From contig OZ024740.1 of NCBI GenBank assembly GCA_964016885.1, positions 270,320,001 to 270,384,000 of the forward strand: DNA of 64,000 bases, read 5' to 3'. Source of the DNA: Eledone cirrhosa. Taxonomy: Eukaryota. Of this stretch, positions 18,747 to 64,000 are shown piece after piece. Both the position numbers and the translations under genes were made by a program. The notes below the pieces were generated by a model, which worked only from the letters and a program-made list of their open reading frames with translations, did no database searches and had not been told where the DNA came from. The stretch's first letter is position 1, and the number at the start of each line of letters is the position of its first letter.

Positions 18747-19249
<503 letters not shown>

Positions 19250-22013: not shown

Positions 22014-24034
22014 GAAAAAGTGAAGAATAACATGGTCAACAGTACAAAAAAGGGGATTTATTTACAGTCTAACAAAGTTAACTTCTTAGATTTATCGCTC
22101 AACCTTAACACAGGTCTTATAGAACCCTTCCATAAAAATAATGAAAATTTAGCTTACATTGATTATAACACTAATCACCCTCGATCCATAATTAACTCCA
22201 TAGCACATAGTATATCCCTTATAATCTCGCGCCTATCTTCTAACCTAGAGATTTTTAACGAACACGGTAACTACTACAACATAGCTTTACTTAAGGCAGG
22301 CCATAAAGAGAGACTCAAATACATACCAGATACAAATACTAACAACACACTTAATATTAATAACACTATCCACACCAATAGAAGCAACAAATCTAGGACT
22401 AAACATAGAAATTGGCAACAAGCACGTAAATTAATTGAACAGAATACTAATATAAAGACCACTAATAACTATAGAAGATGCAGATATAGAAACTACTTAT
22501 GGTTCAATCCAGTGTTTAACTCCTCTATAAAAACAAAACTACCTTACACTTTCTTCAAATTGATTGACAAACACTTCCCTAAAATTCAAAAATATCATAA
22601 AATCTTTAATAGAAAAACTATCAAACTATCATACTCACCTGCCAACAACATAGAATCACACATACATAAAATTAACTATAAAAGAATTTATAATACAAGT
22701 AGCCCGCAAATAAGTACCATAACACCAAATACAAAACATAAGCATATAACATCATCACAACCAAACACATGTCTGAACACATCACCACAATACATCAACA
22801 AACCCAATACTCAGCCCGTACATAGCAACCTACAAAACCATATCGAAGAACCGGCACATAGAAAAGCATCTAAATCTAACTGCCATCTACCTGACAAATG
22901 CCCTTTACAAAACAGATGCCTAGAGACAAATATAGTATACCTATGTACTATAAATTCAGGTAGCATTACATTGACTCCACACTCTATGATTAACAGGAAC
23001 CTCTTAAATACAACGACTCTCGCCAATAAAATCTGGCAACTCAAGGATGCAAACATGGAATATAAAATCAGCTTGACGAAGCTATCAAAAGCAACGGACT
23101 ATCAAATTGATATGTCCCACTGCGGTCTCTGTAATATGGAACTTTTCCAAATTTTAAATTACAACAAAATGCTTCTTAACAGTAACATTGAAAGAACTAT
23201 TTTCTGTCGGCATAAAGCGGCCACTAAATTTCAGAACTTTAGACCAGCTTAATTTCATCTTATCTATTCCATAACCCAAATTGTACCACTTAGATCTATT
23301 ATAATATCACATTATCATCATCATCATCATTATTATTATAATTGCCATCATCTATCAATGAACAACATCAAAACCTCTTACATTTACATTCTTATTTTAT
23401 ATATCTCTATCTTTCACTCTCTATCTCTATATTTCTCTCCCTAAATTTATTTCATCTCTGGCATTTTATTTTATCATATAATATAACTTACAACTAATTA
23501 AATAAATTTATTTATTTATTGAAATAACCAATACACACATAAATATATTTAACATCATCATATTTATATCTTCGTATCTCCCTATATTTTAGCCACTCTC
23601 AAAAATTCATTAATCTTAATATGTTTAAATTTTCTTCATACATTTTTACTTTTTTACTTATTTATTTTCATATTTTCATTTTTCATTTCTCACATTTTGT
23701 ACCATTCGGTATCATATTAGATGTAATTTATTTATTTATTTATTTTTATTTTTATTTACATTTATTCATGTATTAACGTTTATTCATTTATTGTTGATAT
23801 CATTATTTTCCCTCTCTTTTTCTTTCTCTCCTACGTTATTTCTCCTTATGCGTGTCTCTCCTCTTTCTATCATCATTTATCCATATATTTTCTTCTCTCT
23901 ATATTTTTCTCTGTATTCATTTCTCCTTTGTTGTTTTTGTTTTTGTTTTTGTTTTTTCTTTCTTTCCTTTATCTATCTCCCATTCTTTCTTTCTTTTCTC
24001 TATCTTTATTATTAATATTATTATTGATGATGTA

Positions 24035-24218
24035 GGGCGGTGGATTGGCAGTATCGGTAGAGGGTCGGACGCCATGCTTTCCAGCATAGTTACGTCCCTT
24101 TACCATCTGAGTTCAAATCCCGCCGAGGTTGACTTTGCCTTTCATCCTTACGGGGTCGATAAAATAAAGTACCAGTAATGCACTGGTAATTGCTGGCCTT
24201 GTGCCTAAAGTAGAAACA
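24035..24218 (+). mobile_element. SINE family 1 in the PLE 3'UTR
   Basis: 18-bp TSD attattattgatgatgta at 24017-24034 and 24219-24236. Confidence 0.93.
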
Positions 24219-24277
24219 ATTATTATTGATGATGTAATTTGAATTTGTAAATTTGCCGGTTATATATATTTTTTGTA

Positions 24278-24389: not shown

Positions 24390-24759
24390 AAATAAATCCC
24401 CTTTTTTGTACTGTTGAACATGTTATTCCTCACTTTTTCAATTTTATTACTCCAACATAAACTTACATAGGAATACAAGTGAAATCACAAACTCGTCACC
24501 TACGTAAACCTCTTGTTGAGTCAAATAATGCGGTACGCTAAAACTATCCATAATAAGATGTATTCACAACCTCTAACTGGATTACCTATAATGATATTTT
24601 GTTATCCCTTATATATTATATTATATATATAATGAGATATGGCAGATAGAGGATATATATATATATAGGAGTTGTGGTAAGGAACCAGATGGACCATAAC
24701 GCACCAGAGTACTCAATACTTAGGGTAGTAGAGTGGGTAATAGGAGAAAGTAGTGGGCA

Positions 24760-25508
24760 GACTAATTTGCATAGAGCGTGAGTACGTACCGGTTCAGCGG
24801 AGACGATAAAAACAAATAACGAAACGAAATTAAATTTCGTTTCGTTTGTAACTCACTTTTGTATGACTGACGCTTAAACAATTAAGTTAAAAATGTACAT
24901 CCACATATGTATACTGAAATACTAGTATGCATATGAATACACACACGTGTACATATGTAGATGTACCGAGTTTTTCACTGGACACTTTACTGTGAGTGTC
25001 CAGCTATTCTGTATGTAAACACACAGACAAACCGGTTTTTAGAGTCATACTGGTTTTCGAGGAAACACCTTTCCTCTATTCTCCAGAAAGCCCACTACTA
25101 ATTTTCATAGAAAAAGCATATAACGATATGTGCTTTTACGATTCTCTAGAAAGGCCGGAAGATAGGTAAATATTGCTGATGAGATGTAACAACATCGAAA
25201 CTAGTCCAATATTCCTTGTCTGGCTTTCTGGAGAATAGAGGAAAGGTGTTTCCTCGAAAACCAGTATGACTCTAAAAACCGGTTTGTCTGTGTGTTTACA
25301 TACAGAATAGCTGGACACTCACAGTAAAGTGTCCAGTGAAAAACTCGGTACATCTACATATGTACACGTGTGTGTATTCATATGCATACTAGTATTTCAG
25401 TATACATATGTGGATGTACATTTTTAACTTAATTGTTTAAGCGTCAGTCATACAAAAGTGAGTTACAAACGAAACGAAATTTAATTTCGTTTCGTTATTT
25501 GTTTTTAT
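24760..25508. mobile_element. Non-coding HHR-bearing element (retrozyme-like subfamily C) as a fold-back
   Basis: 287-bp arms 24806-25092 and 25222-25508 around a 129-nt spacer holding the HHR; distant similarity to the 49-53 kb units. Confidence 0.75.
25169..25213 (+). ncRNA. Minimal type I hammerhead ribozyme
   Basis: aatattg-CTGATGA-gatgt aaca acatc-GAAA-ctag-TC-caatatt; all stems pair, GUC cleavage triplet. Confidence 0.93.
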
Positions 25509-25515
25509 ATATATA

Positions 25516-25555
<40 letters not shown>

Positions 25556-25810
25556 TATATAATATATATATATATAATATATATATATAATATATATATA
25601 TATAATATATATATATATAATATATATATATAATATATATATATATAATATATATATATATATATAATATAACATATATATATATATATATAATATATAT
25701 ATATAATATAATATATATATATATATATAATATATATAATATAATATATGTATATATATATATATATATAATATATATATATACAATATATATATAATAT
25801 ATATATACAT

Positions 25811-25863
<53 letters not shown>

Positions 25864-26283
25864 TATAATATAATATATATATATATAATATAATATATAT
25901 ATATAATAAAATATATAATATATATATAATATATATATATAATATAATATTATATATATATATATAATATATATAATATATATATTTAATATAATATATA
26001 TATATATGATATAATATATATATAATATATATGTATAATATAATATATATATATAATATAATATATATATAATATATATATATAATATATATATATAATA
26101 TATATATATAATATAATATATATATAATATAATATATATATAATATATATATATAATATATATATATAATATATATATATAATATAATATATATAATATA
26201 ATATATATATAATATAATATATATATATAATATATATATATAATATAATATATTATAATATAATATATATATATAATATAATA
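25509..26283. repeat. Degenerate (TA)n/(TAA) microsatellite tract; similar tracts at about 30.7-31.8, 34.3-35.3, 37.0-38.5, 44.6-46.9 and 60.8-62.3 kb
   Basis: Directly visible; these tracts produce the Y/I-rich spurious ORFs. Confidence 0.97.
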
Positions 26284-38857: not shown

Positions 38858-39160
38858 TAATACTTGGGGAGAGTCATGTTTGTGTAATATTGCCAGAATT
38901 AATAATAGAACACACTCACTGTTTGGTTGGTTTTCGCTTTTCGCTTCTGTGTCTTTTATATCGGTAATCTAACTTACTCGTTCCTCAATGTTGCCATTGA
39001 CCGATATAAAAGACACAGAAGCGAAAAGCGAAAACCAACCAAACAGTGAGTGTGTTCTGTTATTAATTCTGGCAATATTACACAAATATGACCCTCCCCA
39101 AGTATAACAATATTTGTTTCGACACACGATTTCATATAAAAAATCTCGCAATACTAATTC
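38858..39160. mobile_element. pLTR-like fold-back
   Basis: Arms at about 38860-38965 and 39000-39105; same family as 26284-26480. Confidence 0.7.
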
Positions 39161-42702: not shown

Positions 42703-42754
<52 letters not shown>

Positions 42755-62323: not shown

Positions 62324-64000
62324 ACTCTTTTACTCTTTTACTCTTTTACCTGTTTCAGCCATCCGGCTGAGGCCATGCTGGGGCACCGCCCTTGTTGCTA
62401 CACATTTTATCTCCAGCCTGTATAGGTTGGCCACTGGTGTAGGAGGGAGTTTGTTGCTGCTGCCCTTAGGTTTCCCTCGTGTCTTGCTGTGGGCTCATCC
62501 GGGATCCTGGATAACAAGGTGTCGAGATGTTTCTTAAAGACATCCACCTCCACGTCATGCAAGTCTCGCAGATGCCTCGGCAGCCTGTTGAAGAGTTGAG
62601 GGCCCTTGAATCCCAGGCTATTGCAATACCTGCTCCTTATTCTAGATGTGGAAGACGGGACCTTTGGCACCACACAGTGACGTCCTGTTCGACGGTTGGT
62701 CCAGCTCCCAATGCCAAAGTTTGGTGCTAGTCCCACCAGGATTTTCCACATGTAGATCACTGCGTATCTCTCCCGTCTTCGCTCCAAGGAGTAGAGGTTC
62801 AGTTCCTTCAGCCTCTCCCAGTAGCTTGTCTCCCTCATCTTGGCAATCCTCTTGGTGTAGCTTCGCTGGATTGCCTCAAGCTCCGTGGTTAGTTTGACAC
62901 TATGGGGTGACCACAGCTGGGAGCAGTAGTCCAGGCGGCTTACGACAAAAGTCCTCCACAGTGTCAACATGGTGTCTCGATCTCTTGTAAGGAAAGTCCT
63001 CAAGATCCAGCCAGCGAATCGTCTACATGCTGTCGCCACCTTCATGATGTGTGAAGAAAAAGATGCATCATCGCTCATGTCTATGCCCAGGTCTCGTATC
63101 GATTTTGACACGGGGATATCGGTCCCTCCTGGTCCTGTGTAGCTGTGTTCCGCTATATTTGTGTTTGTGCTTGCAGGTTTGTATTGTAGGGCTTGGAATT
63201 TGCCAGCATTAAACTGCATGTTGTTTTCTTCCGCCCATCTGTATATGGCATCCAGATCCTGCTGTAAGAGGGCAGCGTCAGCCGGGTTTTTGATTGCCTG
63301 TGCTACCTTAGTGTCATCAGCATAGCTAGTGAGGGATGTTGTTGCATGCACCACAGAGGGCATGTCCGAGAGAGCCACCAAAAACAGTAGTGGTCCCAGG
63401 ACTGTCCCCTGAGGCACCCCACTTGTTATCGGTGTTTCCCTCTAGAGGGCCCCATTTGCTGCGACTGCCTGGCTTCTGTCCCTTAGGAAGCCATGCAGCC
63501 ACTCACCTACTTTTCCAGTTATGCCGAGTCCGTGTAGTTTGTGACATATGATTCCACGGTCGACCTTGTCAAAGGCCTTCGCAAAGTCAAGATATATCAC
63601 GTCTACATGTGAGCTGTCTAGTAGTTGTCTCAGTACCCAGTCGTAGTGATGTAGCAGCTGTGTAAGGCAGCTTCTTCCTGGGCGGAAGCCATGTTGCGTG
63701 CTAGTCAGGCGGTCATTTTCTTCGAGGAAAGTGATTAGTTTCTTTCTGACGACTCGCTCCATGACCTTACTGATATGCGACGTCAGGGAGACTGGCCTAT
63801 AGTTCTTGGCCTCCGCTCTACTACCTCCTTTATGGATAGGGCATATCGTGCCTTCTTTCAGCTCCCTGGGTAGTACACCGCTAGCCAAGGAGCTTCTGAA
63901 GAGCATCTTCAGTGGAGTTGCTAAGGCCCGCTTACATATTTTTAGGAGAACTGCTGGGAATCCATCAGGTCCAGCAGCCGAGTCTGTTCTAATTTCATTA
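62324..64000 (-). mobile_element. Young CR1-group LINE, 3' part (RT to tail), running off the window
   Basis: NYRPVSLTS, QHGFRPGRSC, YLDFAKAFDKV, SGVPQGTVLGPLLF, YADDTK, LYSLERRRER. One in-frame TAG at 63442-63444; ORF stop at 62407; (GTAAAAGA)n tail. Confidence 0.93.

What the first reader, a model, noticed from the sequence alone, without database searches (positions are those of the whole stretch)
24760..25508. Third, distant subfamily of the same HHR unit: 287-bp inverted arms with a perfect hammerhead in the loop
Seen: arms 24806-25092 and 25222-25508 look identical by eye. The 129-nt spacer holds aatattg-CTGATGA-gatgt/acatc-GAAA-ctag-TC-caatatt. Motifs shared with the 49-53 kb units (aatttgcata, acgataaa, gaaacgaaatt, cact.tt.gta.g.ctg) indicate common ancestry. 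Stems I and II have been replaced while the core and ACUAGU are retained. Inference: long-term selection on ribozyme function and a recent insertion.
Basis: partly seen in the sequence, partly recalled or inferred. Interest (0 to 1): 0.75.

Follow-up and report, generated by a model that had tools for sequence, protein, structure and literature searches.

The report
Two-armed hammerhead retrozyme, Penelope footprint
This is one young copy of a 466-base, protein-free repeat with a predicted self-cutting RNA motif; such copies sit as back-to-back arms ending at two fixed sites, one of each, a footprint likely left by a Penelope-type jumping-gene enzyme copying the RNA from both ends of a DNA cut.

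Summary
In detail: 287-nt perfect arms and a type I hammerhead core are there, and the unit aligns end to end with the 49-53 kb units (60%). It is no designed hairpin. It is two 5'-truncated copies of a 466-bp tandem unit joined head to head; the 'loop' is the part only one copy covers. The family is young and dispersed (1,630 exact cores). Of 44 two-armed loci, 39 end at unit site ~302 on one side and ~230 on the other, none at the same site twice; 60 further loci agree. Targets are (TA)n, with 12-13-bp duplications. This is the known Penelope layout, here on a non-LTR retrozyme. Stems were changed in place, not replaced; helix III is minimal, so this single copy likely cannot cut alone. This locus's left end is atypical, and its own junction was not seen in independent reads. 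The scan noted this footprint before on other families of this genome. New member of a known kind.

The parts
24749..25092 (-). Left arm: 5'-truncated copy of the 466-bp unit pointing left (unit positions 16-359, position 1 = base after the predicted cut); holds no hammerhead; outer end is not at either usual site
   Evidence: 100% identical to a unit of locus L027 over 344 nt
25090..25508 (+). Right arm: 5'-truncated copy pointing right (unit 350-466 then 1-302), ending at the long (tailed) site
   Evidence: 100% identical over 419 nt
25090..25092 (.). Head-to-head junction, 3-nt overlap (GCC) shared by both arms
   Evidence: 13 of 24 clean joins have 2 or more shared bases against 18% expected
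25170..25212 (+). Type I hammerhead: helix I 25170-25175/25207-25212, core CUGAUGA 25176-25182, helix II 25183-25187/25192-25196, GAAA 25197-25200, minimal helix III on ACUAGU 25200-25205, predicted cut after C25206
25434..25439 (+). Short-end site (unit 228-233): where the opposite arm ends at most other loci; internal here
25440..25508 (+). Tail between the two end sites (69-74 nt), with a 13-bp hairpin at 25468-25496
25509..26282 (.). (TA)n-rich target microsatellite
24667..24752 (.). Tail piece of an unrelated, very abundant repeat, fused to the left arm through AGTA (24749-24752)
49107..49939 (.). Related subfamily (B): antisense array with short end at left, sense stub with long end at right
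   Evidence: ends read by eye from the alignment
51369..52147 (.). Related subfamily (B): short end at left, atypical right end
53034..53697 (.). Related subfamily (A): short end at left, long end at right, hammerhead on + at 53367

Best explanation
The stretch is one insertion of a young 466-bp, non-coding hammerhead repeat (a non-LTR retrozyme), built of two 5'-truncated copies joined head to head, and it was likely made by a Penelope-type enzyme that would cut AT-rich DNA on both strands and prime reverse transcription from both DNA ends. Shown: unit, copy number, two-arm layout, two fixed outer end sites used one each per insertion, 12-13-bp target duplications, microhomology at the inner join, young RT + GIY-YIG elements in the same genome. 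Inferred: a staggered cut gives two 3' ends; one primes at unit ~302 and the other at ~230 of the same RNA or of two RNAs held by one asymmetric complex; each cDNA runs through one or more ribozyme sites on a multimeric or circular template and stops at random; the two cDNA ends are joined by end-joining. The ribozyme is predicted to cut only as a dimer in tandem transcripts; this locus has one copy and is probably a dead end. Its left end lost, or never had, the short site.
For: Unit and arms. 1,630 exact 32-nt cores, control 0; 1,995 long-end/TA junctions, control 0. 44 of 62 mapped loci are two-armed; 39 of 44 long+short, 0 long+long, 0 short+short, 4 with one odd end (this window is one), 1 unresolved; in the 28 consecutive loci of contig C1 19 long+short, 6 single, 2 short+odd, 1 unresolved. 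Of 60 more loci picked for a long end, the far end is a short-end arm in 30 (two are duplicates of each other), a short-end stub in 7, odd or absent in 19, unresolved in 4, never a resolved long end. 74 of 87 outer flanks are TA runs. 12-13-bp duplications at L031, L033, L037, L044, L085, cross-locus control 4-7. Arms of one locus differ by a median 0.27% against 2.1% to arms of other loci, 61 loci. 74 of 78 arms cross a cut site. One inverted RT + GIY-YIG pair (L130) also has a long and a short end about 60 nt apart. Literature: inverted 5'-truncated copy and one-sided tail (PMC8557442, passages), both strands cut and extended, two internal start sites define the tail (PMC11167929, parts 1-2 of 4).
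Against: No driver found: 50 GIY-YIG loci show no terminal homology to the unit, tail-region scores 10-33. A second inverted RT + GIY-YIG pair (L129) has two alike ends. The window's own left end breaks the rule. The one-molecule step is weak: in-register sharing of unit-specific variants gave p 0.025 in the first 9 informative loci but p 0.85 in 4 new ones and 0.048 combined; 148 such variants are in one arm only against 14 shared; the own arm is closer than the nearest foreign arm in 28 loci, equal in 14, farther in 19. No A>G excess on the ribozyme strand (29 against 33 T>C). The tail is about twice the 30-40 bp described for Penelope elements.
Confidence: 0.8

Rival explanations
1. Same element and enzyme, but every insertion is copied round and round from a one-unit RNA circle, as proposed for retrozymes.
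For: Arms are non-integer multiples up to 15.8 units; 10 loci carry rare variants in all units of both arms; the circular unit folds far better than shuffles (z -9.9); model in PMC7229834 (passages).
Against: At L055 and L051 a three- and a two-change haplotype occur only in that locus genome-wide, in both arms at the same unit from the end and not in neighbouring units: a one-unit circle does not give this without later conversion. Long arrays also show irregular repeats of variants (L040), so later shuffling is real and blurs the test both ways.
Confidence: 0.4
2. LINE-type twin priming or fold-back of one cDNA made the inversion.
For: Microhomology at the joins; LINE-like RT fragments lie in the window.
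Against: Classical twin priming (recalled) gives adjacent, non-overlapping pieces; here long-arm 5' ends are spread from 9 to 433 and arms overlap. Fold-back needs one arm class always to be the longer: long-end arm longer in 19, short-end arm in 20. No poly(A) or fixed 3' end at the cut site.
Confidence: 0.07
3. The perfect inversion is an assembly or library artefact.
For: Arms are 100% identical; the window holds other perfect palindromes; this junction was not recovered from other runs.
Against: Artefact palindromes would not end at two fixed, different sites or carry target duplications; arms of older loci differ slightly; five antisense-to-sense joints of other copies stand in short-read contigs at depth 7-16, though with under 30 letters on one side.
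Confidence: 0.03
4. A host-selected hairpin RNA that presents a ribozyme in its loop, or a MITE/foldback DNA transposon.
For: A + strand transcript could form a 287-bp stem with the hammerhead unpaired.
Against: Copy is identical to the mobile unit, so no time for host selection; loop position differs at every locus; arms are internal unit sequence, not fixed terminal repeats; one ribozyme copy with helix III unfavourable as a monomer (-0.9 against -6.8 kcal/mol without it).
Confidence: 0.04

Closest known systems
Metazoan non-LTR retrozymes (Cervera and de la Pena 2020, PMC7229834, passages; Li, Clavereau and Pollet 2026, 10.64898/2026.07.22.740005, parts 1-3 of 5)
   Same: Tandem, low-GC, non-coding units with one type I hammerhead each; strongly self-paired; target duplications above 4 bp; helix III of one pair on a palindromic tetraloop as in axolotl HHR_Amex1; Penelope elements in the same genome.
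   Different: Unit slightly above the 150-450 bp range of 2020 (within the 51-972 bp of 2026). The passages read describe no two-armed inverted insertions or fixed paired ends; their link to Penelope rests on ribozyme type, co-occurrence and pLTR homology, here on the insertion footprint. RNA and cleavage not shown here.
Endonuclease-bearing Penelope-like elements (Craig et al. 2021, PMC8557442, passages; Frangieh et al. 2024, PMC11167929, parts 1-2 of 4; Cervera and de la Pena 2014, PMC4209133, passages)
   Same: Partial tandems, inverted 5'-truncated copy at the 5' end, tail at one end only, AT-rich or (TA)n targets, two internal start sites, minimal dimer-type hammerhead.
   Different: No ORF; tail 69-74 nt rather than 30-40; the two sites are used strictly one each per insertion, whereas in vitro no strand difference in start site was seen and the papers say only 'often'.
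Rfam Hammerhead_HH9 (RF02275)
   Same: Type I topology and core, E 2.5e-6.
   Different: 38.9 bits against a gathering score of 52; short helices II and III.

Membership tests
Metazoan non-LTR retrozyme | Type I hammerhead in each unit | tested here: met
   Core intact at 229 of 234 sites located by their flanks; pairing and covariation
Metazoan non-LTR retrozyme | Head-to-tail tandem units of a few hundred bp, GC under 50% | tested here: met
   466-bp period; GC 36.5%; 45 of 62 loci have two or more tandem ribozymes. The window's own locus has one.
Metazoan non-LTR retrozyme | No protein coding | tested here: met
   No frame of 130 aa within the element apart from frames that run into the TA tract
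Metazoan non-LTR retrozyme | Target duplication longer than 4 bp when present | tested here: met
   12-13 bp at five loci with readable flanks, control 4-7; none readable at the window locus
Metazoan non-LTR retrozyme | Expressed as linear and circular RNA | not testable with these tools
   No RNA holder listed
Metazoan non-LTR retrozyme | Self-cleavage | not testable with these tools
   Needs a bench assay, monomer against dimer
Penelope-like element (autonomous) | ORF with RT and GIY-YIG endonuclease | tested here: not met
   None in the element; present elsewhere in the genome
Penelope-type insertion footprint | Inverted 5'-truncated copy at the 5' end | tested here: met
   44 of 62 loci
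Penelope-type insertion footprint | Tail at one end only | tested here: met
   39 of 44 two-armed loci, none with alike ends; longer than the published 30-40 bp
Penelope-type insertion footprint | AT-rich or microsatellite target | tested here: met
   74 of 87 outer flanks
Penelope-type insertion footprint | Terminal homology to an autonomous element | tested here: inconclusive
   None in 50 loci taken from the 150 scored of 10,597 GIY-YIG candidates
MITE or foldback DNA transposon | Fixed terminal inverted repeats round a fixed core | tested here: not met
   Arm lengths and junctions vary freely and the two ends differ
Rfam Hammerhead_HH9 | Score at or above gathering threshold | tested here: not met
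   38.9 against 52 bits

The most novel reading that the evidence does not exclude
Penelope enzymes integrate by priming both ends of a 12-base staggered cut on one and the same RNA molecule, at two sites that flank a hairpin, which explains the one-sided tail and the inverted copy at once; and the retrozyme RNA copied is, at least at times, an uncut multimer or dimer circle rather than the one-unit circle of the standing model.
Probability: 0.3. Interest if true: 0.7.

Novelty: new member of a known kind. Interest (0 to 1): 0.42.

Why it matters
How Penelope elements make their tandem and inverted copies is described as undefined (PMC8557442), and that they carry animal retrozymes is proposed but not shown mechanistically (PMC7229834; 2026 preprint). 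This family gives two exact RNA start sites, a 12-13-base stagger and a strict one-of-each rule, which an existing in vitro Penelope assay could test directly. The single locus itself is an ordinary, probably inactive copy, and the same footprint was already noted on other families of this genome.

Tried and rejected
Independent check of this junction: contigs of X1-X3 and raw RAD reads of X22 gave no listed record across 25090-25093, and X1-X3, X6 none across the left fusion; a hole proves nothing, the sample may be another individual. DNA search with the spacer alone returned nothing because common words are skipped. Idea that 5' truncations cluster at the cut site: ends are spread round the unit; the apparent recurrence of the window's junction came from the query. 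In-register sharing of variants did not replicate in new loci. No donor array for the L055 or L051 haplotypes. No RNA-editing bias. No driver element among 50 GIY-YIG loci. Rfam microRNA hits are palindromes and TA runs, all under threshold. The bacterial promoter scan is not meaningful for this genome. Paper searches for the paired-end rule or inverted retrozyme insertions showed none in the listings; no supplements were seen, and Fig. S9 of PMC7229834 and Fig. S2 of PMC11167929 may bear on it. Older Penelope papers outside the library were not read.

Full report
Observation. The arms (24806-25092, 25222-25508) are 287 nt and fully complementary. The spacer holds a type I hammerhead core; Rfam HH9 matches at E 2.5e-6 but under its threshold. 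A natural unit from 51.6-52.0 kb aligns along its whole length at 60% (278 of 463 columns; score 170, best of 100 shuffles 47); the 53 kb type is 64% alike over 358 nt. The hammerheads of all three subfamilies align without gaps: 95% of cells pair, 5 of 15 pairs change on both sides, slid controls pair at 33-44%. With three subfamilies these are few independent events, but the stems were altered in place, not replaced.

What it is. A search of the window's genome gave 376 matches in 40 scored places, mostly tandem arrays of period 466. Against one such unit the window is an antisense piece (24749-25092, unit 359 to 16) and a sense piece (25090-25508, unit 350 through the cut site to 302), both without a difference, overlapping by 3 nt. 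The 'loop' is only what one arm covers alone. The exact 32-nt core occurs 1,630 times and the long end fused to TA 1,995 times, controls 0. The unit is 36.5% GC, non-coding and strongly folded (z -9.9 as a circle, 40 shuffles). The host is a 3-Gb genome that looks like a cephalopod to me (recalled from repeat style, untested).

Architecture of the family. I mapped 62 loci: the window, 37 from the ranked search (biased to young copies, the first seven to the window's layout) and 24 more that complete a run of 28 consecutive loci on contig C1. 44 are two-armed, always antisense then sense with 3' ends outward. In 39 one outer end lies at unit 296-303 and the other at 226-234; none has two alike ends; 4 have one odd end and 1 is unresolved. 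Among the 18 others, four show a short-end stub of a few bases at the far side. In 60 further consecutive loci picked for a long end the far end was a short-end arm in 30 (L171 and L172 duplicate each other), a short-end stub in 7, odd or absent in 19 (some are chaining failures of my script) and unresolved in 4 (L193, printed as long, was mis-oriented and runs off the stretch). Outer flanks are TA runs in 74 of 87 cases. Where flanks can be read, 12-13 bp are duplicated (L031, L033, L037, L044, L085; also L035, L039 in imperfect TA; cross-locus control 4-7; the test windows included 8 nt of element), while loci with one broken end show none. Inner joins lie anywhere on the unit; 17 of 41 carry extra bases, and 13 of 24 clean joins share 2 or more bases against 18% expected (p 6e-5). 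Read by eye, the 49 kb and 53 kb relatives end at the homologous two sites.

Mechanism. Papers on Penelope elements describe exactly this layout: partial tandems, an inverted 5'-truncated copy, a tail often at one end, microsatellite targets (PMC8557442, passages). A purified Penelope protein cuts and extends both strands of AT-rich DNA and starts at two internal RNA sites that bound the tail; ribozyme cleavage was not needed (PMC11167929, parts 1-2 of 4). Young RT + GIY-YIG elements exist here (ORFs to 1,096 aa, 94-99% alike within families), and one of two inverted pairs seen has a long and a short end (L130; L129 does not). I therefore infer double-ended priming by such an enzyme. Arm lengths exclude fold-back of a single cDNA and classical twin priming (19 against 20). 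No driver was identified.

One RNA or two, circle or multimer. The strict pairing needs either one RNA with two sites or an asymmetric complex. Arms of a locus always belong to the same subfamily (0.27% against 2.1%, 61 loci), but are not clearly closer than the nearest foreign arm (28 closer, 14 equal, 19 farther). 74 of 78 arms read through a cut site, so templates were circles or uncut multimers. Two loci carry haplotypes unique in the genome in both arms at the same unit and not in the next, one with period two, which a one-unit circle does not give. The general test is weak: p 0.025 in 9 loci, 0.85 in 4 new ones, 0.048 together, and long arrays show later shuffling. I leave this open.

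The ribozyme at this locus. Helix III is one pair on CUAG; forming it costs about 6 kcal/mol in a monomer while ACUAGU pairs with itself. Such motifs cut well only as dimers (PMC4209133 and PMC7229834, passages), and 8 of 9 frog dimers tested did not cut at all (2026 preprint). This locus has one copy, so it is predicted inactive in cis; 45 of 62 loci have tandem copies.

The odd left end. The left arm starts at unit 359, fused through AGTA to the 86-nt tail of another abundant repeat that shows the same long/short layout at 18876-19213 and 42751-42891. Two insertions followed by a deletion, or a template switch in one event, both fit; I cannot tell them apart.

Reality check. This junction was not recovered from public runs. 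Five other antisense-to-sense joints were seen in short-read contigs, and fixed ends with target duplications are not what artefacts give.

Novelty. Retrozymes, their proposed Penelope link and the Penelope layout are in print; six paper searches showed no report of the paired-end rule (listings only). Earlier notes of this scan describe the same footprint on other families of this genome; none matched this sequence. My reading was fixed before those look-ups. Verdict: new member of a known kind, interest 0.42.

Noticed in passing
window 18876-19213, 42751-42891, 24667-24752: An unrelated, very abundant repeat with the same layout: inverted arms in (TA)n, one end about 80 nt longer than the other. 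No hammerhead looked for.
   Followed up: partly
window 47661-47856, 38904-39061: Further near-perfect palindromes in AT-rich sequence; they cause the sub-threshold Rfam microRNA hits and may be arms of other such families.
   Followed up: no
window 26571 (-), 47010 (-), 56109 (+): Other hammerhead-like cores of different sequence; like motifs recur in L116, L120, L126, L129, L131, L132.
   Followed up: no
window 3916-4770 (+) and 62407-63441 (-): Reverse transcriptase fragments (PF00078), probably LINE remnants.
   Followed up: partly
window 24030-24235, 7671-7889, 52300-52680: Copies of a SINE-like repeat; two form a 219-nt, 94% inverted pair.
   Followed up: no
L082 (G000:C1:95651500-95661000): Array of more than 20 units of a subfamily 10% diverged, ends outside the stretch.
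   Followed up: no
L088 1772-8074: Two copies face away from each other 5.5 kb apart with mirror-image inner flanks: a larger inverted duplication or an assembly feature.
   Followed up: no
L130 and L129: Inverted pairs of RT + GIY-YIG elements; L130 ends 591 and 530 nt after its ORFs, L129 ends alike on both sides in CA-rich sequence, so clades may differ in the end rule.
   Followed up: partly
L171 and L172 (G000:C1:55.97-55.99 Mb): Two identical insertion patterns 17.7 kb apart, a segmental duplication.
   Followed up: no
L136 5938-6157: A minimal 220-bp insertion of this family, short end left and long end right, without the ribozyme.
   Followed up: partly
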